Virus record (IMG/VR): IMGVR_UViG_2695420874_000004
Source of the DNA: a virus
Taxonomy: Duplodnaviria; Heunggongvirae; Uroviricota; Caudoviricetes
Reading direction: 5' to 3' (one strand)
Length of the DNA stretch: 50,477 nucleotides
Made by a program: the position numbers and the translations under genes. This document shows, piece by piece, positions 698 through 47,227 of the stretch (position 1 is the first letter of the stretch; every line of letters starts with the position of its first letter). Under the pieces are notes generated by a model. The model worked only from the letters and a program-made list of their open reading frames with translations. It was not told the DNA's origin and ran no database searches.

Positions 698-1060
698 GGG
701 GCTGATTCTGGATTCGACGGGATTTGCGAAACCCAAGGTGCATGCCGAGGGGCGGTTGGCCTCGTAAAAAGCCGCAAAAAATAGTCGCAAACGACGAAAA
801 CTACGCTTTAGCAGCTTAATAACCTGCTTAGAGCCCTCTCTCCCTAGCCTCCGCTCTTAGGACGGGGATCAAGAGAGGTCAAACCCAAAAGAGATCGCGT
901 GGAAGCCCTGCCTGGGGTTGAAGCGTTAAAACTTAATCAGGCTAGTTTGTTAGTGGCGTGTCCGTCCGCAGCTGGCAAGCGAATGTAAAGACTGACTAAG
1001 CATGTAGTACCGAGGATGTAGGAATTTCGGACGCGGGTTCAACTCCCGCCAGCTCCACCA
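698..1060 (+). ncRNA. ssrA: tmRNA (transfer-messenger RNA, SsrA)
   Basis: Starts GGGGCTGATTCTGGATTCGACGGG and ends with a tRNA-like acceptor arm ...GGTTCAACTCCCGCCAGCTCCACCA; contains the tag reading frame GCAAACGACGAAAACTACGCTTTAGCAGCTTAA (ANDENYALAA*). 363 nt. Confidence 0.93.
1016..1060. repeat. attL core: 3' end of ssrA, repeated at 36413..36457
   Basis: 45-bp sequence ATGTAGGAATTTCGGACGCGGGTTCAACTCCCGCCAGCTCCACCA is present identically at 36413..36457. Confidence 0.75.
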
Positions 1061-24752: not shown

Positions 24753-25442
24753 TCATATGAGACGACCGTCTGGACTTCTGTTACCTAAATGTAATTCACA
24801 GAGTATCCACCTAATCACATCAGGTCGAATTAACCCAGCTACAAAAACCGAATTCCAATTATTTTTACCTTTATGTTTTTCATCCAACAGCAACAACTCG
24901 CGAGTCAACAACTCATATACATCGCTATAAGTAGAAAGACTCTTATTCAGTCCTCTAATAACAAGCTCAGGATATAAGTAAAACGACTCCCATTGTTCAG
25001 ACAAATACCCCTTAATATTATTCTTGATAACAACATTATCAAGATGATACTTAACATTGTTATATTCTGGTGACATTGGGTCAATTATGATTTTTACATC
25101 AATTGTAGGTGTTCGCCCTAATTTAGAAAAATTAGCACATATTAATCTTTGTTTTAATATATTATCAAAATATGGATGCAGCATCCGATGGCCTGCAGAA
25201 TTAGCTATAGTAGTACTTTTGAAAGTATTACATTTGCAAGCAGGAACCAAATTCTTAGTGAATAAAGAAAATTCTGGATAGTTTTCCTTGGGTAAAACAT
25301 GATCCAAAGTCCCGCTATGCATTGAACCACACATTGGACATAGAGAGTTAGAATTAGCTGCTCTTATATCATCAATTATAGATAAACACTTTGCGGGATT
25401 GTTATAATAATATCTCAAAGCTTCAGCAATATTGTTACTCAA
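24753..25442 (-). CDS. HNH endonuclease-like protein (candidate Septu PtuB-like effector)
   Basis: CPMCGSMHSGTLDHVLPKENYPEF...NLVPACKCN has the C-x2-C / DH / N / C-x-C-N arrangement of HNH nucleases; AT-rich; no ATG at the 5' end (probable TTG start). Confidence 0.7.
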   Translation of the reverse strand: MSNNIAEALRYYYNNPAKCLSIIDDIRAANSNSLCPMCGSMHSGTLDHVLPKENYPEFSLFTKNLVPACKCNTFKSTTIANSAGHRMLHPYFDNILKQRLICANFSKLGRTPTIDVKIIIDPMSPEYNNVKYHLDNVVIKNNIKGYLSEQWESFYLYPELVIRGLNKSLSTYSDVYELLTRELLLLDEKHKGKNNWNSVFVAGLIRPDVIRWILCELHLGNRSPDGRLI

Positions 25443-25616
25443 TACGCCACAAGAATTGACATTAAGATACCCTTTATTCTTTATGTACGATCTATATGCA
25501 TTAAGTATAAATGTATCCTGTTCATTCAGAACAGAATGATGTTTTAATCTCTTATTTGCAGATAGTTTTTAAATGCAGAATAATCTTTAAAAACAGGTCT
25601 TTTTAATTTATTCATT

Positions 25617-27266
25617 TCAATTGCCCATTTCATTTCTCAACGCAGTTAATACATTAAGTGATAAGTCCTCGCTATATTTAGATTCAACATCATCCCAAGA
25701 CATATTCTTTGCAATTATATTATTTTTTACTTTATTTAAAATTTGAGTTGGTTCACTCTCACCGAAAACAAAATATGAGATATTTCCTATATTCGCCCCA
25801 AAAGTACTCAATCTCGGTTTTTCGCTAACAATTACCCCATCATCTCGTCTTCTGAGTATTGTCACTTGCTCCTTAAAAACCTCCCGAACAAGATAAACCG
25901 AATGCGTTGCTATGATAGCTGAAGAGCCTGTCTTTTCTAATAAATTATCAAGCAATGCCATAAATTTATTAATAAATGAAGGATGGAGATGTGTTTCTGG
26001 CTCATCTATTAATAGAAGAGTCCCATTCTCAATATACAAACAGACTTGTACACAAAACTTAATAAACGATATTTCCCCACTACTCAAAGGATAACATTTA
26101 TTTTCAATAAGCCTCAAAGGCTCGCCAGAGAGAATAATTTCAGAATATAATGATAGTCTGGATTCTTCGCCTCGAGAATTAAGCTCATTTAATTTAACAA
26201 ATGGTGAATTTTCACCGTTACATTTGATTACTAAATCGTTGTTACTATTTAGAACACTCAGTGCATCAACAAATATATTCCACCTTTGATTATAGCCGAT
26301 AGCGTCGTTACTCCTCGCTAGTTGCACTATTAAATCATTCAAGTTTAATTTGGATTTTGATTCACGATTTAAAGTCAATCTTTTGTACCATATCAATGAT
26401 TTTATTCTTTTATCGGTTGGAAATGAACACTTACTTTCATTTGTTGGAGAAAAAGCAATGAGCCTACTAATTTGAATTCGTTCTTCAATGCTCACACCGT
26501 TAGAATCAACTACAGCCACCAAATTATCCTTTCCTTTAATCGCAGCCAATGCGATTTCTCTAAGCGTTTGGCTTTTTCCTACACCATTCTCGCCTATAAT
26601 TATGGAAATTCTTTTTGGTAAATCATGCTCGTGATCAAAATTAAAAACATAAGATACATCTTCTTCATTAACTTTATTCGAATAGCTAATCTTGATGTGC
26701 TGTGATAAATTACCCAACTCCTCATATTGAATACCGGAAAGAACTGTTCCTGCATTTTTGAAAGTAAAATACGACTCAGACTCTCTAATGAAAGATTTAT
26801 TAAAGATATCAGAAGAGATTGCTTTTTTCCTCAAATTCTCTGCACTAGCGTCACTTTTCTTAGAAACAACATCATTAATGAAATTTAATATATATTTGGA
26901 TTCATTCACCCCAAAAAATCTTACTAGTCTTCGATAATTATTCATATCCTGAAGCATGACAAAATAATCATTAAACCCCTCATCCTTTAAATTAGATTCT
27001 TCCTTTTTCTTCACTCGCCTTATCAGTTCTGCTTTTCCATTTCGTTCCTCCTCTGAATTCAAAAAACCAATATAACCATTCAGTGAAATTATATCCTTAC
27101 ACTCTTTTTTATTAAAAATAGATATTTCGACTCTACTCAAATATCCAAAATCATTCCAATCGCTTCTTGATGGGACTATTTTTATATAATTACCAGAATC
27201 AGATATCTGTTGATTATTTGTAATTAAAAAATATAAACTATAATTTTTATTTTTCTTGACTAACAT
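25617..27266 (-). CDS. ABC/AAA15-type ATPase (candidate Septu PtuA-like) with about 200-aa N-terminal extension
   Basis: Walker A IIIGENGVGKSQTL, ABC-signature-like LSSGE, Walker B/D-loop LLLIDEPETHLHP; AT-rich. Confidence 0.8.
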   Translation of the reverse strand: MLVKKNKNYSLYFLITNNQQISDSGNYIKIVPSRSDWNDFGYLSRVEISIFNKKECKDIISLNGYIGFLNSEEERNGKAELIRRVKKKEESNLKDEGFNDYFVMLQDMNNYRRLVRFFGVNESKYILNFINDVVSKKSDASAENLRKKAISSDIFNKSFIRESESYFTFKNAGTVLSGIQYEELGNLSQHIKISYSNKVNEEDVSYVFNFDHEHDLPKRISIIIGENGVGKSQTLREIALAAIKGKDNLVAVVDSNGVSIEERIQISRLIAFSPTNESKCSFPTDKRIKSLIWYKRLTLNRESKSKLNLNDLIVQLARSNDAIGYNQRWNIFVDALSVLNSNNDLVIKCNGENSPFVKLNELNSRGEESRLSLYSEIILSGEPLRLIENKCYPLSSGEISFIKFCVQVCLYIENGTLLLIDEPETHLHPSFINKFMALLDNLLEKTGSSAIIATHSVYLVREVFKEQVTILRRRDDGVIVSEKPRLSTFGANIGNISYFVFGESEPTQILNKVKNNIIAKNMSWDDVESKYSEDLSLNVLTALRNEMGN

Positions 27267-33588: not shown

Positions 33589-34239
33589 TTGTCAAATGGA
33601 GAGTTCATCTTGAAGATTAATACAGGTGCAAATACGGGAGGGAGAGAGACCATCAAAAGGCTGATGACAGCCTATGGTTTCAACACTCAGATAGCGTTGG
33701 TTGAACACCTCGAAGCATCAAAAAGCACCATGGCAAACAGGATGTTACGTGATAGCTTCCCTGCTGACTGGGTTATTCAATGTGCCCTTGAAACAGGTAT
33801 TTCTCTTCTTTGGCTGACAACGGGCCAAGGGGAAATGTATCCTCAAACAGAAGAAAAAAATAAGTTCAAAAACGAGAGTTCACCTACAGTTCGCCCCCTT
33901 TCAAAGATAGTTATCCCATCAGTAAGGCAGGCAACTATTGAGAACGGAACTCTCGAAGAGATGGGGGATGTTTTCCTTGATCAGACTTTGATACCCGGAA
34001 AAGCCGAATATTGTTTGTACGTCAAAGCTAACGACGGCAATTACATTGTTGATACATCAACAAAACAGCTTAGTAACGGAATTTGGCTCATAGACATCGA
34101 CGGTATGAAAAACATCGTCAAAATTGCGCGCATACCTGGAAACAAAATAGTAGTTAACCAAGATGACACGTCATTTGAATGTTCTGTAGATGATGTGGAA
34201 GTCGTAGGACGTGCAGTCAAAGTAATCAAGAACCTCTAA
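33589..34239 (+). CDS. CI-type immunity repressor (phage 186 CI-like)
   Basis: ...AYGFNTQIALVEHLEASKSTMANRM...CALETGISLLWLTTGQGE parallels the 186 CI N-terminal DNA-binding region as I recall it. Confidence 0.8.
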   Translation: MSNGEFILKINTGANTGGRETIKRLMTAYGFNTQIALVEHLEASKSTMANRMLRDSFPADWVIQCALETGISLLWLTTGQGEMYPQTEEKNKFKNESSPTVRPLSKIVIPSVRQATIENGTLEEMGDVFLDQTLIPGKAEYCLYVKANDGNYIVDTSTKQLSNGIWLIDIDGMKNIVKIARIPGNKIVVNQDDTSFECSVDDVEVVGRAVKVIKNL

Positions 34240-34242
34240 CTT

Positions 34243-35262
34243 ATGACCATAAGAAAACAGCCGAACGGAAAATGGTTGTGTGAGTGCTATCCCAATGGAC
34301 GCAATGGTAAGCGCGTGCGTAAGCAATTTGCTACCAAAGGCGAAGCTATTGCATTTGAAAGCTTCACAATGGAAGAAGTGAACAAAAAACCATGGCTGGG
34401 GGAAAAGGAAGATCGGCGACATTTATCAGAATTAATTGAGCTGTGGTATTCCCTGTATGGTCAAACACTCACAGACCCCAAGCGCCTCATGGCGAAACTT
34501 AGTATTATCTGTAATGGTCTAGGCGATCCCATCGCTTCAGAACTGACAGCCGGTGACTTTACGAAATACCGCGAAGCACGGTTAAAAGGTGAAGTACGAA
34601 ATGAAGATGGCACGCTTATGTCGCCCGTTAAGCCCCGCACGGTAAACCTTGAACAGCGCAATCTATCATCTGTTTTTGGTACACTGAAAAAGCTGGGCCA
34701 CTGGTCAGCCCCCAACCCGCTTGCCGGGCTGCCAACATTTAAAATTGCTGAGAGTGAATTGGCGTTCCTGACCCCGGAAGAAATTAAACGTCTGCTGGAT
34801 GCCTGTGCTGATTCTCAAAGCTCTAGTCTGCTGACGGTTGCAAAAATATGTCTGGCCACCGGCGCGAGATGGAGTGAAGCCGAAAACCTGCAGGGCCATC
34901 AATTATCAAAATACCGGATCACTTACACCAAAACTAAAGGCAAGAAAAACCGAACCGTACCGATATCTCAGGAGCTATATGAAGAACTCCCCAAAAACAG
35001 AGGGAAACTATTCACGCCCTGCAGAAAAGCTTTTGAGCGCGCAGTAAAACGAGCCGGTATAGACCTGCCTGAAGGCCAGTGCACACACGTGTTGCGCCAT
35101 ACATTCGCCAGTCACTTCATGATGAATGGCGGAAACATATTGGTACTACGCGATATTCTTGGTCACTCTGATATAAAAATGACGATGGTTTATGCTCATT
35201 TTTCGCCAGATCATTTAGAAGATGCTGTAACAAAAAATCCACTGGCTATGTTGGGATACTGA
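34243..35262 (+). CDS. int: Tyrosine integrase (P2/186 Int family)
   Basis: 339 aa with C-terminal HVLRHTFASHFMMNGG...LGHSDIKMTMVYAHF catalytic box (R...H-x-x-R...Y). Confidence 0.92.
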   Translation: MTIRKQPNGKWLCECYPNGRNGKRVRKQFATKGEAIAFESFTMEEVNKKPWLGEKEDRRHLSELIELWYSLYGQTLTDPKRLMAKLSIICNGLGDPIASELTAGDFTKYREARLKGEVRNEDGTLMSPVKPRTVNLEQRNLSSVFGTLKKLGHWSAPNPLAGLPTFKIAESELAFLTPEEIKRLLDACADSQSSSLLTVAKICLATGARWSEAENLQGHQLSKYRITYTKTKGKKNRTVPISQELYEELPKNRGKLFTPCRKAFERAVKRAGIDLPEGQCTHVLRHTFASHFMMNGGNILVLRDILGHSDIKMTMVYAHFSPDHLEDAVTKNPLAMLGY

Positions 35263-35264: not shown

Positions 35265-36296
35265 ATGGAAAAAAGCATTAGCACATTTATGTACCTATCC
35301 GTTTTATTAGGTTGTATATTCTTATTTATAAAATATCGACTTTATGTTCTCGATCATAGAAGCTTGTTCCAACAACCCTTGTTCTGGGCTGCAATAGGCC
35401 TACCTTTATTCACCAGCCTTTACTTTGGTTCTTTTGTCTGGATAGATAAAATACACTCTTTTAGTCTTACAAGTCACGGTTATGAGAGATTTTTAGATAT
35501 CTCGAAATTACCATTACTCATCCTTGCATCTGCAGTACCTTTAGTTTCAATAGTAAACAACCTACACAGAACCAAACAAACAGAAAAACAGATCTCAGAG
35601 GCAGAAAGGAAAAACAGGGTAGATTTATATTACAACCACATGAAATTTCATCTTGATTTATATAAAAAAATCGAAGGGAAAAGAATAGGCAGCTACTACC
35701 CGGTTCAGGAAGCTCAAGCTGAAGCAATCTACCAACATTTTATAAAACATCCACAAGAACTATATAGAAAAGCATACCCACAATCTACGCCTGATGATTC
35801 TCAACAATTAGATATTAATGAGCAATTTGTTATTGATTTACACAAATGTTGGGTAGAAATCAACGCAAGACTCAAGCAATTATCCGAGAGTGAAAATCAA
35901 ATACATCCTACAGAGGAACTTTGCACAACAAAGATGAGAATATTTGTAGGAGTTATGATTATTTATGAAAAAACTTGTAAACTGTTGTGTTTAGGTGGAT
36001 TTCATTATAAAAAGTCATTTGTAATAAATGATAGTTATAATAAATACCAAGTTTATTCACCATTTTATGATTTTGGCACTCTGTACGAATCACTGCAATC
36101 CTTAGAAGAGATAACCTACGCCTTCTTGGATACTTGCAGAAATGAAGTGGTAAACTTGTACTTCCCTATAGAAGATAAAATTTTGATATATGGTGAAGGG
36201 ATTCTAGAGAATTGGTTCAAGTATTCTCAGTTCTTGATCACTATAGCTTATCAACCCGCCAAGATGTCTCGCTTACCCCAGCTGAGACGCGATTGA
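35265..36296 (+). CDS. Hypothetical membrane-anchored cargo protein between int and attR
   Basis: 343-aa AT-rich ORF starting 2 bp after the int stop; two N-terminal hydrophobic helices (LSVLLGCIFLFI, LFWAAIGLPLFTSLYFGSFVW) and a large soluble C-terminal part. Confidence 0.65.
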   Translation: MEKSISTFMYLSVLLGCIFLFIKYRLYVLDHRSLFQQPLFWAAIGLPLFTSLYFGSFVWIDKIHSFSLTSHGYERFLDISKLPLLILASAVPLVSIVNNLHRTKQTEKQISEAERKNRVDLYYNHMKFHLDLYKKIEGKRIGSYYPVQEAQAEAIYQHFIKHPQELYRKAYPQSTPDDSQQLDINEQFVIDLHKCWVEINARLKQLSESENQIHPTEELCTTKMRIFVGVMIIYEKTCKLLCLGGFHYKKSFVINDSYNKYQVYSPFYDFGTLYESLQSLEEITYAFLDTCRNEVVNLYFPIEDKILIYGEGILENWFKYSQFLITIAYQPAKMSRLPQLRRD

Positions 36297-36412
36297 TGAT
36301 GGCGACATTTTGGCGGCAGAGCTTTAAAAACAGATAAAACTGTCAAACACCACATAACACTAACGTATTGTTTTTAAAAATAAATCATTATTTTTTCTGT
36401 AGTAAAAATGGT

Positions 36413-36457
36413 ATGTAGGAATTTCGGACGCGGGTTCAACTCCCGCCAGCTCCACCA
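36413..36457. repeat. attR of the P2-like prophage / attL of the downstream island: partial ssrA 3' end
   Basis: Exact 45-bp copy of 1016..1060. Confidence 0.75.
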
Positions 36458-36582
36458 ATTTTTGATATATTGAAGTTCAGTGAAGTCTATCAAGCCCGCA
36501 TGGAACCAGCCTTGCGGGCTTTTTTACGTCTATAGTAGTCTACCGAGAATTGCTAGAATCTACTCGTTATGGCACCCTTTTT

Positions 36583-36627
36583 GGGACCCAACACAAAGGG
36601 TCCAAAACATGAGGGTCCCAAACATGG
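36583..36627. repeat. Three tandem 15-bp imperfect repeats overlapping the island integrase start codon
   Basis: GGGACCCAACACAAA / GGGTCCAAAACATGA / GGGTCCCAAACATGG in direct succession; the third contains the int ATG. Confidence 0.4.
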
Positions 36628-37853
36628 CAAAAATCGCTAAGAAGCTCACTGACACTGAAATCAAAAGCACCAAACCTGCCGAGAAAGAGGTTAACCTTTT
36701 TGACGGCGATGGTTTGCTCCTGCGAATCGCCCCCTTAGCGAAGGGAGGAAAGAAAAATTGGTATTTCAGATATGCAGTGCCTGTGACCAAAAAGCGAACT
36801 AAGGTGAGCTTAGGAACCTATCCTCACCTTACACTTGCGAAGGCACGAGCTTTACGTGATGAGTACTTGTCGTTGCTTGCAAATGGTATAGACCCACAAG
36901 TTCATAACACCCACAAAGCCAATGCCCTTAAGGATGCAACGGAACATACATTTCAAGCAGTAGCCAAGAAGTGGCTTGATGAGAAAGTCAAAACGTCAGG
37001 CATCTCCCAGGATCATGCTAACGACATCTGGCGAAGCCTAGAGAGAAATATCTTTCCAACGTTGGGTGATACCCCCATTAAGGAGATTCGCCCTAAAATG
37101 CTTAAACAGCATTTAGACCCCATAGAAAAACGAGGTGTCCTTGAAACACTTCGCCGCGTCATATCCCGCCTGAATGAAATTTTCCGCTATGCAGCAACAG
37201 AAGAACTCATAGAATTCAATCCGGCTGACAACCTGGGGCAACGGTTCAGCAAGCCAAAAAAACAGAATATGCCAGCATTACCCCCTTCCGAACTCCCCCG
37301 CTTCCTGGTTGCTCTAAACAATGCTTCTATCCGTTTAGAAACAAGGCTACTGATTGAGTGGCAACTTCTCACATGGGTTCGCCCTGGTGAAGCTGTTCGC
37401 ACAAGATGGTCAGATATTGATATAGAAACCAGCATGTGGAACATCCCGGCGGAGTTTATGAAAATGAAGAAGCCTCACAAAGTTCCACTGAGCAAAGAAT
37501 CTTTGCGAGTCTTGGATTCAATGAAAGCCATCAGCGGGCATAGAGAGTGGGTTTTTCCCAGTATCAAAGCTCCACTCAATCACATGCATGAACAAACAGC
37601 TAATGCGGCTATAATCCGTATGGGCTTCGGAGGTGAGCTTGTAGCTCATGGTATGCGATCAATCGCTAGAACGGCGGCTGAGGAGTGTGGCAAGTTTAGA
37701 ACTGATGTCTTAGAAGCCGCCCTTGCCCACTCGAAAAAAGATGAAATAATTGCAGCCTACAATCGTGCAGAGTATCTCACAGAACGTGTGGTTCTCATGC
37801 AATGGTGGAGTGACTATGTTTCGTCTCAAAAATACAAAGTTATTGCCGCATAA
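36624..37853 (+). CDS. P4-type tyrosine integrase (CP4-57 IntA-like)
   Basis: N-terminal LTDTEIKSTKP...GDGLLLRIAP...WYFRY arm-binding region and blocks DIWRSLERNIFP, QKKNMPAL, AHGMRSIARTA, EAALAH, AYNRAEYL, MQWWSDYV shared with IntA as I recall it. Confidence 0.9.
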   Translation: MAKIAKKLTDTEIKSTKPAEKEVNLFDGDGLLLRIAPLAKGGKKNWYFRYAVPVTKKRTKVSLGTYPHLTLAKARALRDEYLSLLANGIDPQVHNTHKANALKDATEHTFQAVAKKWLDEKVKTSGISQDHANDIWRSLERNIFPTLGDTPIKEIRPKMLKQHLDPIEKRGVLETLRRVISRLNEIFRYAATEELIEFNPADNLGQRFSKPKKQNMPALPPSELPRFLVALNNASIRLETRLLIEWQLLTWVRPGEAVRTRWSDIDIETSMWNIPAEFMKMKKPHKVPLSKESLRVLDSMKAISGHREWVFPSIKAPLNHMHEQTANAAIIRMGFGGELVAHGMRSIARTAAEECGKFRTDVLEAALAHSKKDEIIAAYNRAEYLTERVVLMQWWSDYVSSQKYKVIAA

Positions 37854-38135
37854 CTCTTCCATGATGGGTTAACTATCTTGATTTATTTGAAGAATTAATG
37901 ATCACACCATTAACCTATGTGGACTAAGCATAGCCATTTACAAATGGGTACCTTGAGGCCACATAACGAAAGCTGTCGGTCATATCAGCTAAATAATTCA
38001 CATCTCTTCTCGATTATCATACACCTCGAAGAACTACCAAATTCGCTCTAATCAATGATAAAACAGTTGAATTCGGTTAAAATTTGATCAATTTTATCCT
38101 CTACATTGTATTGAATCATCCATGAGGTTTTGTGC

Positions 38136-39692
38136 ATGGCTAGCGGAAATGAAAAAAATCATAGAGTTAGGGTCGCACAGTACTTGAGGATGTCTACCGA
38201 CCATCAGCAATATTCTTTACATAATCAGTCTGAATATATCAAAGATTATGCTGAAAAGAACAATATGGAAATCGCTTATACCTACGATGATGCAGGTAAG
38301 AGCGGAGTCAGTATCGTAGGCAGGCATTCTTTGCAGCAGTTACTTAGCGATGTAGAACAAAAGAAAATAGATATACAGGCTGTATTATTTTATGATGTGA
38401 GCCGTTTTGGTCGTTTTCAAAATAGTGATGAAGCTGCATATTATTCCTTTCTATTTGAAAGAAATGGTGTAGATCTTATATATTGTTCCGAACCTATACC
38501 CACTAAAGATTTCCCTTTAGAGTCCTCTGTTATACTGAATATAAAAAGATCAAGTGCTGCATATCACAGCAGGAATCTATCTGAAAAGGTATTTATAGGG
38601 CAAGTAAATTTAATAAAGCTTGGTTATCATCAAGGCGGTATGGCTGGTTATGGGCTGAGACGTCTTTTAGTAGACGAAAATGGCATAGCTAAAGAAATAT
38701 TGAATTTCCGCAAAAGAAAGAGTATTCAAACAGATAGGGTAATATTAATTCCGGGACCAAAAAATGAAATAAAAATTGTAAATAGAATCTATGATCTCTT
38801 TATAGATAGTAACGTCCCAGAATTCATTATTGCTGAGAGATTAAATGAACAGAGCATACCTGCAGAAAATGGAACATCATGGACTCGTGCAAAAATACAT
38901 CAAATTTTGACAAATGAAAAATATATTGGAAACAACATATATAACAAAACCTCATCTAAACTAAAAAGTAAGCTTGTAAAAAACCCCAAACATGAATGGA
39001 TTAGATGTGACAAGGCATATAAACCAATTATTTCAAAGAAAAAATATAATAAAGCTCAAGAAATAATTCAGCTCCGATCCATTCATTTGACTAATGAAGA
39101 TCTATTAGAAAAGCTAAAAGAAAAATTAGAATCTAATGGAAAACTATCAGGCTTTATCATTGATGAAGATGATACAGGCCCTTCATCTTCTGTTTATAGA
39201 ACCCGATTTGGTGGTCTTTTAAGAGCATATACTTTGATTGGTTATAAGCCAGAACATGATTACAGCTATCTCCAAATAAATGAAGCACTAAGATCATTTT
39301 ACTCAGAGATAATTGAGGATTTTAAGGGCGAAATATTAAAAAGTAACTGTCATATAGACGAGTATAAATATTACCCAATGCTTTACATCAATGATGAGTT
39401 TTTAATTTCCGTCCTTGTTACTAAATGCATACATATGAAATCAGGTAAACTTAGATGGAAAGTCCGGTTTGATAACTCACAGAAAGCAGACATAACAATT
39501 GTTATACGAATGAATTCACAAAATATTTCACCTCTTGATTTTTATATCATACCAAAGATTGAAAACGAATATAGTAAAATGTGTATGATGGAAACAAACA
39601 ACATTCGGTTAGATCTCTATAGATTTGATAATCTTGATAAATTTCTACAAATTATTACTCGCATGAAAGTGAGGGAACTATATGCTGCCTGA
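38136..39692 (+). CDS. Large serine recombinase
   Basis: N-terminal resolvase-type catalytic region VAQYLRMSTDHQ...YDDAGKSG...R followed by a long recombinase extension; total about 518 aa. Confidence 0.8.
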   Translation: MASGNEKNHRVRVAQYLRMSTDHQQYSLHNQSEYIKDYAEKNNMEIAYTYDDAGKSGVSIVGRHSLQQLLSDVEQKKIDIQAVLFYDVSRFGRFQNSDEAAYYSFLFERNGVDLIYCSEPIPTKDFPLESSVILNIKRSSAAYHSRNLSEKVFIGQVNLIKLGYHQGGMAGYGLRRLLVDENGIAKEILNFRKRKSIQTDRVILIPGPKNEIKIVNRIYDLFIDSNVPEFIIAERLNEQSIPAENGTSWTRAKIHQILTNEKYIGNNIYNKTSSKLKSKLVKNPKHEWIRCDKAYKPIISKKKYNKAQEIIQLRSIHLTNEDLLEKLKEKLESNGKLSGFIIDEDDTGPSSSVYRTRFGGLLRAYTLIGYKPEHDYSYLQINEALRSFYSEIIEDFKGEILKSNCHIDEYKYYPMLYINDEFLISVLVTKCIHMKSGKLRWKVRFDNSQKADITIVIRMNSQNISPLDFYIIPKIENEYSKMCMMETNNIRLDLYRFDNLDKFLQIITRMKVRELYAA

Positions 39693-40578
39693 AAAAAATG
39701 AATTCCCAATAATTCAAATTGAGATTGCAAAAATAAAATTTCTTAACCCACGAACAAGAAATAAGGTAGTGCATGAAGAAATAAAGGAAAGCATAAAAAA
39801 AAGAGGATTAAGCAAGCCTATAAGCGTAAGAGCTATTGATGAAGACGATTTCAAATATGCTTTAATTTGTGGTCAAGGGAGAATAGAGGCTCTTGTTGCA
39901 TTAGGTGAAACTATTATTCCAGCAATTATAAGAGATGTATCAGAAGAAGATGCTTACGTTATGAGTTTAGTTGAAAACATTGCAAGGAGAAGACCACGTT
40001 CTAATGAGTTATTACAGGTGATTAAAGACATGAAAATCAGAGGACTTTCAGACTCCGAAATAAGTGAGATTACTGGATATTCATCGAACTGGGTGAGCAG
40101 TATTAATATGCTTCTTGATAAGGGAGAGCATAAACTTCTCTCAGCAGTCGAACGGGGTAATTTGCCTCTGTATCTCGCAGTGCAATTTGCAAGATGTGAA
40201 ACTGAGGAAGCACAAGATATTCTTACCGAAGCATATGATAAAAAATTAATAAAAAGTCGGGACATTATAAAGATAAAATACATTCTAAATCAAAGAACAG
40301 TTGGGAATAAAGGTGCAAAAGCAGCCGGATTTTATTATCACAAACCATCAAAAAGGATGACTGCAGAGGAGTTGATTGAGCTTTATGAAAATAGTATCGC
40401 TGAACATAAATCTGTTTATAACAACTCGAAATTTATAAAAACCAATCTACTAATAATAAATGAGATTTTTAACATCATAATGATGAATAAAAGCTTTCAA
40501 AATATACTTGAACAAGAGAATCTTTCAGAACTACCATCTCAGATATTAAACCCAGTAAACAAAGAGGTATCAAAATGA
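39682..40578 (+). CDS. ParB-like (ParB/Srx-fold) protein 1
   Basis: PISVR...YALICGQGRIEA...MSLVENIARR plus HTH-like GLSDSEISEITGYSSNWVSS match the ParB N-terminal domain pattern; overlaps the recombinase stop. Confidence 0.7.
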   Translation: MLPEKNEFPIIQIEIAKIKFLNPRTRNKVVHEEIKESIKKRGLSKPISVRAIDEDDFKYALICGQGRIEALVALGETIIPAIIRDVSEEDAYVMSLVENIARRRPRSNELLQVIKDMKIRGLSDSEISEITGYSSNWVSSINMLLDKGEHKLLSAVERGNLPLYLAVQFARCETEEAQDILTEAYDKKLIKSRDIIKIKYILNQRTVGNKGAKAAGFYYHKPSKRMTAEELIELYENSIAEHKSVYNNSKFIKTNLLIINEIFNIIMMNKSFQNILEQENLSELPSQILNPVNKEVSK

Positions 40579-41471
40579 TTCAGATACGTTTTGGCAAAAA
40601 TTTTATTTACCTGGAAACTAATAAGTTAATTCCATCTAAGGAATTATTAGAAAACGTAAAGCGAAGCCATAAATATCATCAAATAGTTACCTCTATCGAA
40701 AGCTTGGGTATTATTGAACCAATAATAGTATTCTATGACAAAGATAAAGATGTCACTAAGATACTTGATGGCCATTTAAGGGTTGAGGCTTTAAAAGACT
40801 TAGATATAGAAAAAGCTCCATGTATACTTTCGAGCATAGATGATGCTTTCACTCCTAACAAACAAGTGAATCATATAAATGTAGTTGAAGAACATAGAAT
40901 GATAATTAAGTCTCTGGCAAAAGTATTAATTGAAAAACTTAGTGCTGCTTTGGGCATATCTGTTGATGCCATAAAAGATAAAGCTAATGTGATGAACGGC
41001 ATAGATCCAAGTGTAATTGCGAAACTTTCTGATAAACCTATACCTAAGGCTACATTTGACGTTTTGAGGAAAATGAAGCCAATTCGTCAAATTGAAGCAG
41101 TCGGTACAATGATTAATTTTGATAATTATAGTAAAAAATTTGCAATGAGCATCTTGGATGCAACACCGTCATCGATGATAGTAAATAAAGGGAAAAACAC
41201 TCCCTATAAAAAGGACATAAAAAAAACCATACTTCGTCTGGAACAAGAAATGGCAACAACTTCGGAAGAAACGAAAAAACTTCAAACCGAGTATGGTTCA
41301 GATATGTTGAAATTCGTTATAATCCAGTCATATATTAATAAATTACTTGGCAACTCTAAAGTTCTTCATTGGTTCTTAGAAAACGAGGTTGATTATCTTA
41401 ATGAGTTAAAAAGAATTTCTAGAATAAATTCTTTGGATGATAAGACTCTTACTGAAAACAGCCAGTCATAG
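40575..41471 (+). CDS. ParB-like (ParB/Srx-fold) protein 2
   Basis: IIEPIIVF...ILDGHLRVEALKDL resembles the ParB N-terminal motif; overlaps the upstream stop (ATGA). Confidence 0.6.
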   Translation: MIQIRFGKNFIYLETNKLIPSKELLENVKRSHKYHQIVTSIESLGIIEPIIVFYDKDKDVTKILDGHLRVEALKDLDIEKAPCILSSIDDAFTPNKQVNHINVVEEHRMIIKSLAKVLIEKLSAALGISVDAIKDKANVMNGIDPSVIAKLSDKPIPKATFDVLRKMKPIRQIEAVGTMINFDNYSKKFAMSILDATPSSMIVNKGKNTPYKKDIKKTILRLEQEMATTSEETKKLQTEYGSDMLKFVIIQSYINKLLGNSKVLHWFLENEVDYLNELKRISRINSLDDKTLTENSQS

Positions 41472-42523
41472 TCATGGTTTTATATAGCCTAAATAAACCA
41501 AGAAGTATACTTACACAACGACCTTCACGCCGAAGAAGCTGTCAGATACGCCAGCAACCAAAGCATTGCGTTTAAGAGTCAGTCATTGATACGAAGGGAT
41601 AACTGCGTATCAGCAGCCGGACATTGAGTCGAATAAAGGCTGGTAGAGAGGGACAGTTCTGTGTCACCGGGAGATTAGTCAGAAACATCAGCGGCAGAAC
41701 AGATGAACCAGCAATTGGTAGTGTACAGAAAACTCTCCAGTATATAATTATTCAACTTAACACTAAAAAAAATCACATAGTTAATATCATAATTTTTCTT
41801 TGGTCTACTTATGCGAGAGATATTGTGGCTTCAACCTGGTATTAGGAGTCGTTTCAGATAAAAGATGTTCTTCGATTCGACTGGACTTGGTAATAGCAAT
41901 AAGTAATCGTGAATATTGAAGGACGAAAGGCTACTTCAAAACAAAGTAACCTTTCCAATATTCCCATATATGGGACAAGTGGCACATTAACTGCACATAG
42001 TGCAGGATACATATGACATAAAACTTTTTATTTATGGCATACATTAAGAATAACTTTTATTTTACGAATGTCAATAGGCTCTTGCTTAATACTTTTAAAA
42101 TAATTAATTGATTTTTTATTATAGCTTCGCTTGTACAAGCGAAGATCCTATTGTTCTTGAATGAATAATGCCAATTATAAAAGAAGCAAGGGCTAACCCT
42201 ACGAAGCCGCTGCGCTTGTTTCTTTGGGTTCCCCTTGCTTTTCTTCCCTTCGGTTAGAAAAGAAAATCCAGCCCAGTTTATCAACTATCTACAGTATTCC
42301 CACTAAAGAGTAACCGCCACTTTATACTCCGTTTGTGAGCTGAGGCTACTGTAGCATTTTTGGGTTTAAATTTTCTATCATTACCAGTTGTTGTGTCGGG
42401 ATAAAAATATTTTCTCGCATCCAACCATAAAGATATCAGATTTGCTATCATCATCACTTCACATAATGAAACTTTTTAAGTAGGCCTAAAATACAAGGCC
42501 TACTTAATAGCCGGAGATAGTTA

Positions 42524-43429
42524 TTATTTAGATGCTAAAATAGTATTTTTATTGAATTTTTCATCAGCATCTGTAAGCTTTTTCATTATTAAAGCAGGGG
42601 CTATATCCTGAAGCTCCGTAGATTTTATGAAAAAATAATTACAAAGGTAAATTATATTATTAAGATTAATTGGTATATCAATATTATAATCTAACATTAA
42701 CGATAACAAACGATCTCTGTCAATTCTATAAAACTTTTTACCAAGCTCTTTCTCATTAATTATTGAAATTATCTTTTCATCAAGCTTATCGTCCATTCTC
42801 AATCTTAATTTATTTCTTAGCATAGCGGACCATGCGCTTGACTTATAATTTCTATATGCTAAATCCTCAAATAACTTCATTATTCCCCAATCAGATGTTT
42901 CCAAAGAGGCGTAAATTCCATTCAGCGCGCGACTAAGGTCATTATGCTCAACCCAATCCTCTTTGCACTTATAGCGTAGATCATGCTCAACTTCATGCCA
43001 TCCTTCAGATAAAATAGTTCTAAATTGGACTTCAAAAGTAGTATCAATATAAGAATATTTCTTTAATAAGACACTATCATTTGATAATACTTCTGGTAAC
43101 TTAAAGACGTAATTGCATCGAGTTGCCGCAAAGAGATTAGCCGTGGTTTCGTCTACGGTTTTAGATTCAATTTCGAATAATTTCTCCAGTGTTTTTTGAG
43201 CAATAAATAAATCATCAGGAAAATATAATATTATCCTAACCCCAAATAAGTCTTGAATTTTTTTACCATCCTCTGAGTATTTATTAGGCTCTTTTTCATA
43301 TTTCTTAATTATTGAGCTTTCTGATTTTGTCCTCGAAAAAAAACGATAAAGTAATCCAATACGATTAAGTTCATCTTCTATATCTTTTTGCAAACTTTGA
43401 ATAATTCGCAATTCATTCCCGTTATACAT
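42524..43429 (-). CDS. RelA/SpoT-like nucleotidyltransferase (small alarmone synthetase / toxSAS-like)
   Basis: Three synthetase-fold motifs in order: SRTKSESSIIKK (GRxKS-type), DLFGVRIILYF (D-x-x-G-x-R), FEVQFRTILSEGWHEVEHDLRYK (E-x-Q-x-R-T...H...Y-K); about 140-aa C-terminal extension. Confidence 0.7.
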   Translation of the reverse strand: MYNGNELRIIQSLQKDIEDELNRIGLLYRFFSRTKSESSIIKKYEKEPNKYSEDGKKIQDLFGVRIILYFPDDLFIAQKTLEKLFEIESKTVDETTANLFAATRCNYVFKLPEVLSNDSVLLKKYSYIDTTFEVQFRTILSEGWHEVEHDLRYKCKEDWVEHNDLSRALNGIYASLETSDWGIMKLFEDLAYRNYKSSAWSAMLRNKLRLRMDDKLDEKIISIINEKELGKKFYRIDRDRLLSLMLDYNIDIPINLNNIIYLCNYFFIKSTELQDIAPALIMKKLTDADEKFNKNTILASK

Positions 43430-45534
43430 CAGAAATTCCTCCCAAGAATTGCTTTAATCTCTGATATTCTTGCCATGTTAAGTTCAAGGAACGAACGCTT
43501 GTCTGGCGTAAGTAAAAGACCGTCTTTCCTCAATTTATCTAAAGAATGGAGTATTTCACTTAACTGAAATTGATTGTTGTTAGAACATAAGCCTTTTATA
43601 GGCCGATGCTTATGATAGCTAACACTCCCTCTGGGACAGAACTTCTCTAAGATGTAAATATCACAATCTGTAATATCGTGATCATTTTCACTGTTTATCT
43701 CGACAGATTTTTTATTAATAGCATCATTGTCACATTCACATCCCAAAAAATAAATATCTTCCCTACCACTTAATTCGTTAAAACTACAATCTATAAAAGA
43801 ACAGTTCACGAATGTAACGTTTTTATAATTACCACAGGTAAATATGCTGCTAAAAAACGAACAATCAACAAAGATAGTATCATGTATTATATTTATATCG
43901 CCTAAAGAAAGTTTTGATATAGACAATTGCTCAACACTATCATTTTTTAAATCTAATGGAACTTTTCCTATAAGCAAATGACTATAAAGGATTTTATCAT
44001 TACCTGACATAAAATATAAAGCAAACTCTAAGCTATGCCAAAGTAATTCTTTTTCATCATCGATCCTCGGCATATAAGATTGCACTGCTGGTTCTATAAA
44101 ACGTTTATCACCAATCCATTCATTTGACTTATCATTAATAATATTTTCAGAAACAAAATTACCAAGAACAAATTCATTAACAAATCCAATACCTTGGTTT
44201 TCTGAGCCTGACCGATCTAATAGAGCATGCGATGCTAATTTATTAACTAATTCGTCAGTAGTTGGTCTTTCATCTACAGTATAAAGCTTTCTTGTAGCCT
44301 CCAAGAGTTGTTGATTCTTTTCAGTTATGACTAACGATATATACTCTCTAGACTCAGATGTGTAGTTACCCTCGACCATGTCGTCAGCTATTATTTTTAG
44401 TATAGTATATTGATCTTCAATAGACATTAATAAATCTTGTCTTTTTCTTTCTCGCTCAAGCATTGAATCAAAATACTTCCTCACTATAGTTGTTGGGTCG
44501 CTTATAACTTTATTAAAGTCGGTGTCGTCGATGCATCTTAGAAATGATAGCAGTACAGGGTTTGATAATTTGTTAAGAGGAAATCCTGTCGATGAAATTT
44601 CATCTAAACGTTGACCTGGAAGCCAGTCTTCAATTTGTGGTTCATGAATTCTTATTCTTATCACATCAAAATCTTCTTGATGTGATGCTATCCACTGATG
44701 GAATTCATCTCCGTCAAATATAGCTGTTCTTCGAGTTGTCAAAACCACTTTTGCACTATCAGTTAGAAGCTCACTTATTGTTTCCAGCATTGGCTCTGTT
44801 TTTTCATAATTATTTTCAATTCCGTTTGTACTTTCATGCAATAGTTCATCAAACCCGTCAAGTATAACTGGTACATTTCCTGCTCTTATTTCATTCCTTA
44901 CTAAGGCTGAGCTTAACAAAGGAAAACTTCTATCAATTTCATCTAATAGTACATACCTGAATATTTTTGCTTGCCTATTCCTTGATAGTTCTGAAAATAA
45001 TGGTATTTTCCCTATATTGTTAACTATAATCTCCCTCAATAATTCATACGCCGTGCAAGTCTTTCCAAAACCGGCTGCAGCCTCAATCAAAAACAGAATT
45101 GGACGCCTATGTTGTATTCTCTCTAATATTTCCGTAACAACACTAGCTTCGCCAATAACACCATTTAAGTAATATTTTGAATTTATGTAGGAATAAGTTG
45201 CAGTAGGTGAGTGAATTTTTACAATTGAATCTGTGAAAGTATTATAATCTTTAATCAACCTTTCTTTAGTTGAATCGACGCTAAAGAAGCCATTAAATAA
45301 TTCCTTATGTGCTTCTTCATAAGACTGATATTTTTTAATTTGACATGCATAACCTAACTGCCTATATTCTTCAAAGGTTTGATTTACATTAACCTCATTA
45401 TTTAGTGGAAGTATGTCCGCGTTATGGTAGTGCCCTGTTTTAATAGAATATACAGCAATACTTTCGTTACCTGTATTTTCTTCAGTAAAACCAAACCTTT
45501 TATATATCTCTGTAAGTTTGCTTTTTCGTAACAT
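43429..45534 (-). CDS. NACHT-type STAND NTPase with repeat-rich C-terminal region
   Basis: Walker A LIEAAAGFGKTCTA and NACHT-type Walker B VPVILDGFDELLH; C-terminal Cys/Phe-rich repeat-like region; start set to the ATG at 45532..45534, which has a strong AGGAGGT Shine-Dalgarno 7 nt upstream. Confidence 0.8.
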   Translation of the reverse strand: MLRKSKLTEIYKRFGFTEENTGNESIAVYSIKTGHYHNADILPLNNEVNVNQTFEEYRQLGYACQIKKYQSYEEAHKELFNGFFSVDSTKERLIKDYNTFTDSIVKIHSPTATYSYINSKYYLNGVIGEASVVTEILERIQHRRPILFLIEAAAGFGKTCTAYELLREIIVNNIGKIPLFSELSRNRQAKIFRYVLLDEIDRSFPLLSSALVRNEIRAGNVPVILDGFDELLHESTNGIENNYEKTEPMLETISELLTDSAKVVLTTRRTAIFDGDEFHQWIASHQEDFDVIRIRIHEPQIEDWLPGQRLDEISSTGFPLNKLSNPVLLSFLRCIDDTDFNKVISDPTTIVRKYFDSMLERERKRQDLLMSIEDQYTILKIIADDMVEGNYTSESREYISLVITEKNQQLLEATRKLYTVDERPTTDELVNKLASHALLDRSGSENQGIGFVNEFVLGNFVSENIINDKSNEWIGDKRFIEPAVQSYMPRIDDEKELLWHSLEFALYFMSGNDKILYSHLLIGKVPLDLKNDSVEQLSISKLSLGDINIIHDTIFVDCSFFSSIFTCGNYKNVTFVNCSFIDCSFNELSGREDIYFLGCECDNDAINKKSVEINSENDHDITDCDIYILEKFCPRGSVSYHKHRPIKGLCSNNNQFQLSEILHSLDKLRKDGLLLTPDKRSFLELNMARISEIKAILGRNF

Positions 45535-46373
45535 TAAACTCACCTCCTGATATTTTTCGCAATGATGCTATAGTCGCTGTATGAACTTTTAATATAATAT
45601 TACAAAAACCATCTACATAGCTACCGCCTAAGCAATAATAGCTATGTAGAGATTATCTGTAAGAGAACAGTTCAACGGTTACGTGCACGTTATGACATCG
45701 TTCTAACTTCATGGGGTGCTCAGTAACAGAACTTTTAAGCCATTCTTGCTCGCTGAACATGCAGTCATACCTATCACAAGCAGTACAACCATTACTTAGC
45801 AGACCTCTGCTTCTTGTTCCAAAAGGAACGTAAACCAGATGTTAGAGTTAACAAAACTGAAAGCCACTGCCCCCCAAATCTCCAAGTCAAACATTAGAGA
45901 CTTTAAGTGAGCTCAGCCCAGATTATGCATTCTAATCAATTTCCAAATAATCAATCGGGCTAAGCCGTGGTGGTCATCGCGCCAATCCCCATAATGAAGG
46001 ATACATCTTGGCTGTATCATCTTCCTTACAGCTGCGTTTCAACATGTGCTGAACAACACTCAAGTTAATGTAAATGAGCCAGTGAATACAACATCTGTTT
46101 CAAATCACTTTGAAGTTTTCTTCACTTAATGTGTACGCCAAAATTATCCGGATAAACATAGAGTAACGGTCGACCGGGATTACAATCAACCAGTTTCATC
46201 TCTAGTAAGCGATATTCTTATGGCGGCAGCGGAATGTTCTGACAACCCCACTGAGGCGGTGCTACAGAATCTTATCGAAGCCAAACATCAGCTACGTTTC
46301 CCTAGATGTTAAAATCAGTAGTCGCAGGGCCAATGCTAATGATCCACACATTGACCGTGAAGGGGCCTTTCAG

Positions 46374-46646
46374 GTGGGTACGACTGCATTCCAAGTGACC
46401 ACCGCACCTATGGAGAAATTGATTTCACACTGTATCAAAATCAAACGCGCAGGCTACAGGCCGGTCATCCTAACTCTTGAAAGCAAGGTCATTGCAGCAC
46501 GCCAGCTGGCTGATAACGTTGGTATGTCTGAACTGATAGCCATCCAGGCAGCTGAAACTTTCATTGGTAACAATATTGAAGAGATTGCTATTTATGACGG
46601 CGATAAAATCCGTGAGAGTCTCGCAAGATTGATACATCTCTTATGA
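46374..46646 (+). CDS. Hypothetical protein
   Basis: 90-aa ORF of moderate GC in an otherwise non-coding stretch; no recognisable motif. Confidence 0.35.
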   Translation: MGTTAFQVTTAPMEKLISHCIKIKRAGYRPVILTLESKVIAARQLADNVGMSELIAIQAAETFIGNNIEEIAIYDGDKIRESLARLIHLL

Positions 46647-47227
46647 TTGATGAGCCTCTTGGATCGTTAACTTACTGACCGACTCCTGAAATACATAGAG
46701 CTCAGTAAGCTTAACGAGTCGCTTTTTTCCACCATACCTAAGCCCCAAAACTAAAGCACTACGGCTTGATTGGGCTGGCGTAAGTCTGCACACCGAGCCT
46801 TTTGCACTATAAATTTCTCAGAATATATAACCAATATGTCAGTAAAGGTTTAAAGTGAATGATTCGTTTTGGCAGGATACTTACGATTATCACAACACTA
46901 TCACATATTGTGTCTCACACACAAAGTTGAAAATCAAAACAGAAGTAAAAGATATAATATTCCCCTGCTAAAATACGATTCACTTCAAACATTTAATATT
47001 AATGGGATATATTTCCCCCTAAGCAATGGGGAAAAACGCCCATCAATCAACCATGAAATAAAAATAGCACTTTTTGCAAACTATGAATTTATTTATATAA
47101 AACATTACATTAAATTAGTTTATTCAAAAGAAAACGCTTGCTTATTTTTTATTATTAAAAATAAATTTGATTTTTATTTATTTGATAATATACATTCATT
47201 TCATCAAAATAATAAAGGAGAATAAAA

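What the first reader, a model, noticed from the sequence alone, without database searches (positions are those of the whole stretch)
35265..36296. Membrane-anchored unknown protein between int and attR
A 343-aa AT-rich ORF starts 2 bp after the integrase stop and is the last gene before the right attachment repeat, where P2 has none. It has two N-terminal transmembrane helices and a large soluble region with no motif I recognise. Position and architecture fit a lysogen-expressed accessory function such as superinfection exclusion or abortive infection.
Basis: partly seen in the sequence, partly recalled or inferred. Interest (0 to 1): 0.5.

Follow-up and report, generated by a model that had tools for sequence, protein, structure and literature searches.

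The report
Uncharacterised membrane cargo gene after prophage integrase
A real, well-conserved gene of unknown function sits in a small "cargo slot" between the integrase and the end of a P2/186-like E. coli prophage; it encodes an inner-membrane protein with a constant membrane module and a fast-evolving cytoplasmic domain. It is most likely an untested anti-phage protein made by the lysogen.

Summary
ORF 35265-36296 (343 aa, 34% GC) starts 2 nt after the integrase stop and is the last gene before the 46-bp attR repeat of a 186/Fels-2-type prophage inserted in ssrA. I count three hydrophobic helices, not two.

The gene is real: dN/dS is 0.06-0.15, and its family has about 945 clusters at 50% identity. 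No library recognises it (Pfam, NCBIfam, PADLOC), apart from PHROG 17460, which has no assigned function. A confident AlphaFold model (pLDDT 88.8) matches nothing in PDB or BFVD.

- **Family design:** the N-terminal 3-TM module and a polar helix face (H101 R102 T103 Q105 T106 Q109 K116 N117 D120) are nearly invariant. The cytoplasmic C-terminal domain diverges very fast.
- **The slot:** among 80 prophages with a ≥89% identical integrase, the int-to-att slot is empty in 15, holds this family in 20, and holds other cargo in 39. That cargo includes a known dCTP-deaminase defence gene. One relative sits in the classical P2 GpA-GpQ defence hotspot.

The gene is therefore not an integration factor. 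It is most likely a defence or exclusion gene co-transcribed with cI-int, and I favour a sensor-plus-membrane-effector (abortive-infection-like) mechanism. Function is inferred from context and is untested. A weak HEPN lead does not apply to this protein.

The parts
698..1060 (+). ssrA (tmRNA) gene; its 3' end is the attachment site of the prophage
   Evidence: ARAGORN; Rfam RF00023, 295.8 bits
1016..1061 (.). attL core: exact 46-bp repeat
   Evidence: Longest common substring with 36413-36458
33589..34239 (+). 186-type CI repressor, first gene of the lysogenic (leftward) operon
   Evidence: Pfam Phage_CI_repr and Phage_CI_C
34243..35262 (+). Tyrosine integrase (ssrA-specific, Fels-2/SopE-phi/186 type)
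   Evidence: Pfam Int_N and Phage_integrase; 89-100% identical in 80 viral contigs
35265..36296 (+). The finding: 343-aa cargo gene, PHROG 17460, RefSeq WP_001676483.1 'hypothetical protein'
   Evidence: dN/dS 0.06-0.15. The insert equals the ORF exactly, when compared with an empty slot
35283..35333 (+). Hydrophobic helix 1 (residues ~7-23)
   Evidence: Kyte-Doolittle analysis; AF2 helix 2-23
35376..35444 (+). Hydrophobic helix 2 (residues ~38-60), preceded by invariant L34, Q37, F40
35505..35555 (+). Hydrophobic helix 3 (residues ~81-97; invariant P83), continuous with the long helix
35556..35645 (+). Family signature: polar face of the long helix (residues 98-127): N99 H101 R102 T103 Q105 T106 Q109 I110 K116 N117 D120 H125 K127
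   Evidence: Invariant or >=90% conserved in 134 representatives
35646..36293 (+). Fast-evolving alpha/beta C-terminal domain (residues 128-343), predicted cytoplasmic
   Evidence: Only 10% of pairs are BLAST-detectable, against 100% for the N-terminal module. Positive-inside rule and 4-TM variants. AF2 model
36297..36412 (.). Conserved attP-arm DNA (contains ATGGCGACATTTTGGCGGCA; putative Int arm-type sites, by inference)
   Evidence: Aligns with the 136 nt that directly follow the int stop in the empty-slot locus L095
36413..36458 (.). attR core: exact 46-bp repeat (duplicated 3' end of ssrA)
   Evidence: partial tmRNA hit at 36281-36457

Best explanation
ORF343 is a single-gene cargo (moron) in the integrase-to-att slot of a 186/Fels-2-type prophage. 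It is read from the lysogenic cI-int transcript and translationally coupled to int. It encodes an inner-membrane protein with topology N-out, three TM helices, C-in. The conserved 3-TM module and the conserved polar face of a ~45-residue helix leaving the membrane form the constant 'output' part. The rapidly diverging ~215-residue cytoplasmic domain is the 'specificity' part. The most likely role is protecting the lysogen against other phages. I propose that the cytoplasmic domain recognises a phage component and switches the membrane module, probably as an oligomer, to perturb the inner membrane. That would be abortive-infection-like, in effect a fused version of the lambda RexA/RexB logic. 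Shown here: that the gene is real, its position, dispensability, cassette exchange, family architecture, and the lack of any known relative. Inferred: expression in lysogens, topology, anti-phage role and mechanism.
For: 1) Operon position. The ATG lies 2 nt after the int stop, and no promoter- or terminator-like site lies between them. In 15 of 18 related loci the start lies -3 to +5 nt from the end of int. In phage 186, an int::lacZ fusion is used to report leftward (lysogenic) transcription (PMC7708051).
2) Dispensable, mobile cargo. Compared with the empty-slot locus L095, the insert is exactly the ORF. Of 80 loci with a >=89% identical int, 15 are empty, 20 hold the family and 39 hold other cargo. 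In L018 and L019 the ORF has dS 0.10-0.12 while the adjacent int has dS 0.48-0.51. The ORF allele does not track the cI type.
3) Defence company. The same slot holds a kinase-dCTP deaminase (PADLOC dCTPase, E 3.9e-145) and an SMEK_N protein. A 2026 survey places 3% of P2 defence systems between int and att (PMC13586616). Family member P0150 lies between ogr/portal and GpA, the classical P2 defence hotspot (PMC9122126). Other members lie in a Vibrio inovirus and at a Pseudomonas prophage edge.
4) Architecture. All N-terminal modules are mutually detectable (median 42% identity). Only 10% of C-terminal pairs are (median 26% identity). Invariant polar residues lie on one helix face.
5) Cytoplasmic C-terminus. 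K+R counts are 2.55 (loop 1) and 2.04 (after TM3), against 0.59 (N-tail) and 1.54 (loop 2). In addition, 16 of 134 members add an N-terminal TM preceded by a Lys-rich tail.
6) A functional protein. dN/dS is 0.06-0.15 in both halves. The AF2 model has pLDDT 88.8.
Confidence: 0.4

Rival explanations
1. It is a superinfection-exclusion protein. It sits in the inner membrane of the lysogen and blocks genome entry of incoming phages without killing the cell, as P22 SieA, T4 Imm or HK97 gp15 do.
For: It is a prophage-encoded inner-membrane protein in the lysogenic operon. The membrane module is the most conserved part. Family members occur in a filamentous phage and in several prophage types.
Against: The variable, presumably specificity-determining domain is predicted to be cytoplasmic, not periplasmic. 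At 343 aa with a ~215-aa soluble domain, the protein is much larger than typical Sie proteins (from general knowledge). PHROGs shows no match to any annotated exclusion family.
Confidence: 0.2
2. It is a lysogenic-conversion or fitness gene unrelated to phages, for example one that modulates envelope physiology, stress tolerance or host colonisation.
For: att-proximal morons in P2-like phages include non-defence cargo (from general knowledge: ctx of phiCTX, sopE of SopE-phi). No defence homology was found. The allele occurs in only 21 of 5,426 complete E. coli genomes, from animals, humans and wastewater.
Against: Extreme C-terminal diversification next to a >=90% identical integrase, and cassette swapping, are the pattern seen for arms-race genes. 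The slot co-occupants and the second location are defence-associated.
Confidence: 0.2
3. It is a membrane-tethered HEPN ribonuclease that cleaves RNA on activation.
For: Three relatives (P0016, P0017, P0027) hit Pfam HEPN_RiboL-PSP (best E 2e-5, residues 92-241) and carry RNxxxH. Their C-terminal domain is BLAST-detectably homologous to the one in the window protein.
Against: The best score, 25.1 bits, is below the gathering cut-off of 28.4. Only 3 of 134 representatives have R[NDHQ]xxxH. The window protein aligns 'ENQI-H' to 'RNAIAH', so the catalytic Arg is absent. The window protein itself has no Pfam hit, and the fold searches found no HEPN structure.
Confidence: 0.05
4. It is an accessory factor for integration or excision at ssrA.
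For: It is tightly coupled to int and directly abuts the attP arm sites.
Against: 15 of 80 prophages with a >=89% identical int and the same att core have nothing in the slot, and 39 have unrelated genes there. Family members also occur away from any integrase. It is a membrane protein.
Confidence: 0.03

Closest known systems
Lambda RexA/RexB (lysogen-expressed exclusion system co-transcribed with cI)
   Same: It is expressed from the repressor operon of a prophage. It combines a multi-TM inner-membrane component with a cytoplasmic component. The proposed logic is sensor plus membrane effector. The Rex details are from general knowledge.
   Different: This is one fused polypeptide rather than two proteins, with 3 TM helices rather than 4. 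PADLOC gives no match to any of its models. No phenotype is known.
TM-plus-sensor effectors of signalling defence systems (Pycsar PycTM, CBASS 2TM/4TM effectors, type III CRISPR Cam1/Csx23)
   Same: N-terminal TM helices are followed by a cytoplasmic ligand- or trigger-binding domain. These effectors are thought to act by membrane disruption and abortive infection.
   Different: There is no adjacent cyclase or CRISPR partner; the gene stands alone. Only a few distant family members give marginal PADLOC hits to PycTM, 2TM or KwaA models (E 4e-5 to 9e-3), and the window protein gives none. There is no fold match.
Cargo of the P2-like phage defence hotspots (Rousset et al. 2022, PMC9122126; Moura de Sousa et al. 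2026, PMC13586616)
   Same: It occupies the int-att slot, which the 2026 survey names as a minor P2 defence hotspot. It is AT-rich and swapped between otherwise similar prophages. A relative sits in the main GpA-GpQ hotspot.
   Different: The protein family is not among recognised defence families. Its accession is absent from the held supplements of PMC9122126 and PMC13092281, and no supplement text is held for PMC13586616.
HEPN abortive-infection proteins (RiboL-PSP-HEPN, ApeA, AbiV and similar)
   Same: A small subclade of the family shows weak profile similarity and an RNxxxH motif in the equivalent C-terminal helix.
   Different: The motif is absent in the window protein and in 131 of 134 representatives, and all scores are below the Pfam threshold.
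Phage superinfection-exclusion membrane proteins (P22 SieA, T4 Imm, HK97 gp15)
   Same: These are prophage- or phage-encoded inner-membrane proteins that protect against incoming phages.
   Different: Those proteins are small and lack a large variable cytoplasmic domain (from general knowledge). PHROGs gives no match to them.

Membership tests
PHROG 17460 (phage protein family of unknown function) | Full-length match to the family profile | tested here: met
   E 5.1e-203, 675 bits, residues 1-343 on profile positions 1-343
Cargo of the P2-like int-att hotspot | Located between the integrase gene and the att site of a P2/186-like prophage | tested here: met
   int ends at 35262, the ORF spans 35265-36296, and the attR core is at 36413-36458. 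Prophage type is shown by CI/Int Pfam hits and by GPA/CP76 neighbours in related loci
Cargo of the P2-like int-att hotspot | Variable occupancy of the same slot in otherwise closely related elements | tested here: met
   15 empty, 20 with the family, 39 with other cargo and 6 undetermined among 80 loci with >=89% identical int
Cargo of the P2-like int-att hotspot | Known defence genes occur in the same slot | tested here: met
   dCTP deaminase (PADLOC dCTPase, E 3.9e-145) in 3 loci; literature statement
Known anti-phage defence families (PADLOC-DB v2.0.0) | Significant match to any defence-protein model | tested here: not met
   No family at E<=1 for the window protein. Only marginal TM-type hits in a few of 134 relatives
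HEPN superfamily (RiboL-PSP-HEPN, PF18735) | Profile match at or above the Pfam gathering score | tested here: not met
   No hit for the window protein. The best relative scores 25.1 bits, below 28.4
HEPN superfamily (RiboL-PSP-HEPN, PF18735) | Catalytic Rx4-6H motif | tested here: not met
   The window protein has 'ENQI-H' where P0016 has 'RNAIAH'. The motif is present in 3 of 134 representatives
Sensor-plus-TM-effector abortive-infection proteins (functional class) | N-terminal TM helices with a cytoplasmic C-terminal domain | tested here: inconclusive
   Three hydrophobic helices. The positive-inside rule and 4-TM variants favour C-in. No dedicated topology predictor or experiment was available
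Sensor-plus-TM-effector abortive-infection proteins (functional class) | Phage-triggered membrane depolarisation or growth arrest that protects the population | not testable with these tools
   Requires infection assays
Superinfection-exclusion membrane proteins (SieA, Imm, gp15 type) | Sequence or profile similarity to a described exclusion family | tested here: not met
   At E<=1, PHROGs returns only phrog_17460 and phrog_6664, both of unknown function. BFVD fold search gives nothing with E<0.3
Integration/excision accessory factors (RDF-like) | Conserved presence with the cognate integrase | tested here: not met
   The slot is empty or holds unrelated genes in 54 of 74 informative loci

The most novel reading that the evidence does not exclude
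The family could be a large, unrecognised class of single-protein anti-phage immunity. It has about 945 clusters at 50% identity, a fold with no match in PDB or BFVD, a signature HRTxQTxxQI...KNxxD helix emerging from a 3-TM module, and a hypervariable cytoplasmic sensor. In this reading it is maintained as an allelic series translationally coupled to the integrase of 186-like prophages, and it is also found in the main P2 hotspot and in inoviruses. Different C-terminal alleles would set different phage specificities, possibly including exclusion of related P2-like phages.
Probability: 0.35. Interest if true: 0.6.

Novelty: new variant of a known kind. Interest (0 to 1): 0.45.

Why it matters
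If it is a defence gene, it would add a widespread, single-gene family with a new fold to the catalogue of phage-defence systems. The invariant polar residues and the natural series of C-terminal alleles make structure-function work straightforward. It would also give real content to the little-studied integrase-att slot of P2-like prophages, where most cargo found here is uncharacterised: a 395-408-aa family, a 506-513-aa family, and a DCD-like/ThyX pair. If it has no anti-phage activity, it is still a strongly conserved lysogen membrane protein with no known function.

Tried and rejected
- **Sequence libraries.** Pfam, NCBIfam and PADLOC scans of the window protein and of 34 and 134 relatives gave no family-level hit.
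- **PDB by sequence.** Profile searches returned only designed helical bundles and coiled coils.
- **HEPN lead.** I followed it and rejected it for this protein.
- **Integration-factor idea.** Rejected because of the empty slots.
- **Linkage to immunity type.** Rejected: loci with 96% or 92% identical cI carry ORFs only 35-38% identical, and loci with 61% identical cI carry 97-99% identical ORFs.
- **RES domain.** My by-eye reading that the 395-408-aa co-occupant family has a RES domain was not supported by Pfam.
- **Literature.** Searches by accession (WP_001676483, WP_045334044, A0A5R1M8F2, phrog_17460) and by topic found no description of the family. No supplement text is held for PMC13586616.
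- **pL promoter.** The simple sigma-70 scan did not locate it. It found only the presumed lytic promoter on the minus strand at 33595-33567.

Full report
**The observation**

The window carries a 186/Fels-2-type P2-like prophage inserted in ssrA. The tmRNA gene lies at 698-1060. Its last 46 bp (1016-1061) are repeated exactly at 36413-36458, so attL and attR bracket about 35.4 kb.

At the right end the genes run cI (33589-34239), int (34243-35262) and the ORF in question (35265-36296), all on the + strand. The ORF's ATG is 2 nt after the int stop. The ORF ends 117 nt before the attR core.

Its GC content is 0.342, against 0.467 for int and 0.50 for the prophage. With that composition, an open frame of 343 codons has a chance probability of about 5e-12.

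There are three hydrophobic helices (about 7-23, 38-60 and 81-97), and the third is more hydrophobic than the second.

**It is a real, constrained gene**

The identical protein is in the public collection. It belongs to a 90%-identity cluster of 221 member sequences, and the exact sequence is recorded on at least 1,000 contigs, always as 'hypothetical protein'. In RefSeq it is WP_001676483.1.

Against alleles 97-99% and 78-80% identical, dN/dS is 0.06-0.15 in both the N-terminal and C-terminal halves. This allele is found in 21 of 5,426 complete E. coli genomes, as a single copy on the chromosome.

**What it is not**

- Pfam, NCBIfam and PADLOC give no hit for this protein. PHROGs gives a full-length match to phrog_17460, which has no assigned function.
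- An AlphaFold2 model built on 34 homologues is confident (pLDDT 88.8, pTM 0.70).
- Literature searches by accession and by topic found no description.

**Family anatomy**

A profile search of 1.84 billion representative proteins found 945 clusters at E<=1e-3 and 197 at E<=1e-30. In an alignment of 134 representatives sharing about 20-45% identity with the window protein:

- L34, Q37, F40, P83, H101 and Q105 are invariant.
- P47, W59, G72, F76, L87, R102, T103, T106, Q109, I110, K116, N117, D120, H125, K127 and Y167 are at least 90% conserved.

In the model, hydrophobic helix 3 continues into one helix spanning residues 90-135. The conserved polar residues recur at i, i+4, i+7 spacing, so they lie on one face of that helix. 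This last point is my inference from the positions.

The N-terminal modules are all mutually BLAST-detectable (8,910 of 8,911 pairs, median 42% identity). For the C-terminal domains only 860 of 8,911 pairs are detectable (median 26% identity). Even so, 113 of 134 join one single-linkage cluster. The C-terminal part is therefore mostly one domain diverging very fast, not a set of unrelated domains.

**Topology (inferred)**

Mean K+R counts across the family are 2.55 for the loop after TM1 and 2.04 for the 15 residues after TM3. They are 0.59 for the N-tail and 1.54 for the loop after TM2. In addition, 16 of 134 members carry an extra N-terminal TM helix preceded by a Lys-rich tail. Both observations place the C-terminal domain in the cytoplasm.

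**Genomic behaviour**

In 68 viral contigs that carry a family member, almost all show cI-int-ORF. The integrase is about 90-95% identical to the window's, while the ORF ranges from 27% to 100% identity. The ORF allele does not follow the cI type. For example, L063 and L071 have 96% and 92% identical cI but ORFs only 35-38% identical. L018 and L019 have 61% identical cI but 97-99% identical ORFs.

I then anchored on the integrase instead. Among 80 loci with int at least 89% identical:

| Slot content | Loci |
|---|---|
| Empty (136 nt from int stop to att core) | 15 |
| This family | 20 (18 directly after int, 15 of those starting -3 to +5 nt from the end of int) |
| Other cargo | 39 |
| Contig ends too soon to tell | 6 |

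Alignment with the empty locus L095 shows that the DNA directly following the int stop there corresponds to window 36296-36458. The insertion in the window is therefore the ORF and nothing else. No promoter- or terminator-like site separates int from the ORF.

In L018 and L019 the ORF differs from the window's at dS 0.10-0.12, while the adjacent int differs at dS 0.48-0.51. The cassette has therefore moved between diverged prophages.

**Company it keeps**

Other occupants of the slot are:

- a 395-408-aa family of unknown function (22 loci);
- a 506-513-aa family of unknown function (8 loci);
- a kinase-dCTP deaminase (3 loci) that matches the PADLOC dCTPase model at E 3.9e-145;
- a dCTP-deaminase-like TM protein paired with ThyX (2 loci);
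- a 218-222-aa membrane protein (2 loci);
- an SMEK_N protein (1 locus).

Distant family members show where else the gene travels. P0047 and P0100 are again in cI-int-X. P0150 lies between portal/ogr and GpA, the main P2 defence hotspot (PMC9122126). Others sit after umuDC at a Pseudomonas prophage edge, in the Vibrio inovirus VALG_phi6, and in another prophage-like region. The gene is therefore a self-contained cargo unit and does not depend on this integrase.

**The HEPN lead**

Three relatives (P0016, P0017, P0027) give sub-threshold hits to Pfam HEPN_RiboL-PSP. The best is E 2e-5 at 25.1 bits, below the cut-off of 28.4. They carry RNxxxH at the start of the helix equivalent to residues 217-240.

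Only 3 of 134 representatives have such a motif. The window protein aligns 'ENQI-H' to 'RNAIAH'. The C-terminal domain may descend from a HEPN-like domain, but this protein lacks the catalytic arginine. I do not file it as HEPN.

**Most likely function and mechanism**

The results establish four things:

- The gene is a dispensable, horizontally exchanged, purifying-selected cargo gene.
- It is packed between int and the attP arm.
- It encodes a membrane protein with a constant membrane module and a hypervariable soluble domain.
- It occurs in slots that also hold defence genes.

The rest is inferred. First, it is probably transcribed with cI and int from the lysogenic promoters. In phage 186, an int::lacZ fusion is used to report leftward transcription (PMC7708051). 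Second, it probably protects the lysogen from other phages.

Because the variable domain is predicted to be cytoplasmic and the membrane module is the conserved part, I favour a sensor-plus-membrane-effector mechanism that is abortive-infection-like. This resembles lambda RexA/RexB fused into one chain, or the TM effectors of CBASS, Pycsar and type III CRISPR systems. My confidence in this mechanism is about 0.4, and about 0.6-0.65 for an anti-phage role of any kind.

The rivals are:

- superinfection exclusion at the inner membrane (0.2);
- a lysogenic-conversion function unrelated to phages (0.2);
- a membrane-tethered HEPN RNase (0.05);
- an integration or excision accessory factor (0.03, largely refuted by the empty slots).

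**Novelty and score**

The setting is known: AT-rich cargo in P2-like hotspots, including int-att. What is new is the protein family. It is large, undescribed, has no match in the available fold libraries, and has a clear signature and a clear constant-versus-variable split.

A specialist would find it a good candidate rather than a surprise, since many such candidates exist. I rate it a new variant of a known kind, with interest 0.45.

Noticed in passing
window 36297-36320, and the C-termini of homologues P0010-P0018, P0023-P0027 (alignment A1): Many family members, and an unrelated 222-aa slot occupant, end in G-D/G-T/I-L-A-A-E. In the window the DNA just after the stop, GGCGACATTTTGGCGGCAGAG, would translate to GDILAAE. 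This DNA is the conserved attP-arm sequence that directly follows int in empty slots. The shared tail therefore arises from ORFs running into the putative Int arm-binding sites, and is not a functional protein motif.
   Followed up: partly
window 24753-27266 (- strand): An AT-rich two-gene cassette lies in the classical P2 GpA-GpQ hotspot. The 549-aa ATPase matches PADLOC PDC-M01A (E 2e-55) and PtuA-like models, plus Pfam AAA_21. The 229-aa partner matches PDC-M01B (E 9e-32). This is a candidate defence system in the same prophage.
   Followed up: partly
window 14957-15871 (+ strand): A 304-aa ORF sits in a 34% GC pocket inside the tail-gene cluster, on the opposite strand to its neighbours. 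It has no Pfam or PADLOC hit. This is a third cargo locus of the prophage, at the Z/fun-type position.
   Followed up: partly
window 36480-48636: A second island is integrated in tandem at the same ssrA site, right after attR. It carries a P4-type integrase (36480-37853), a large serine recombinase (38130-39692), and two ParB/RepB-like genes (39682-41471). It also has a RelA_SpoT-domain protein (42524-43429, -) next to a 704-aa protein with a NACHT-associated inactive REase domain (43429-45543, -), and an ankyrin-repeat protein (47683-48636). The RelA_SpoT and NA-iREase2 pair looks like another defence candidate.
   Followed up: partly
loci L080, L086, L093 and others (22 loci); L088, L111 and others (8 loci); L087, L090: Other frequent occupants of the same int-att slot are also uncharacterised. 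They are a 395-408-aa family (33-100% identity among members), a 506-513-aa family, and a two-gene pair of a dCTP-deaminase/dUTPase-like protein with a C-terminal TM helix plus ThyX. None matches PADLOC.
   Followed up: partly
loci L018, L019 versus the window: The ORF allele is nearly identical to the window's (dS 0.10-0.12), while the adjacent integrase is much more diverged (dS 0.48-0.51). This indicates recent cassette transfer between diverged prophages.
   Followed up: yes
window 36281-36457; RefSeq NZ_CP029057 feature FORC81_RS26870: Rfam (52 bits) and RefSeq annotate a second 'ssrA tmRNA' of 177 nt that overlaps the 3' end of the ORF. It is only the duplicated 3' fragment of ssrA at attR plus flanking phage DNA, not a second tmRNA gene.
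   Followed up: partly
cluster members P0197, P0199, P0200, P0202, P0204: Many Salmonella and E. coli draft assemblies hold 'partial' copies of 229-253 aa on contigs of about 24.7 kb. Assemblies therefore break repeatedly at the same place inside the gene, perhaps because the conserved N-terminal region or int is present in more than one prophage per genome.
   Followed up: no
locus L153 4070-4999: In one distant 186-like prophage, an extra 309-aa gene with no Pfam hit sits between cI and int. This recalls the cI-int hotspot that Rousset et al. 2022 described for K139-like Vibrio phages.
   Followed up: no
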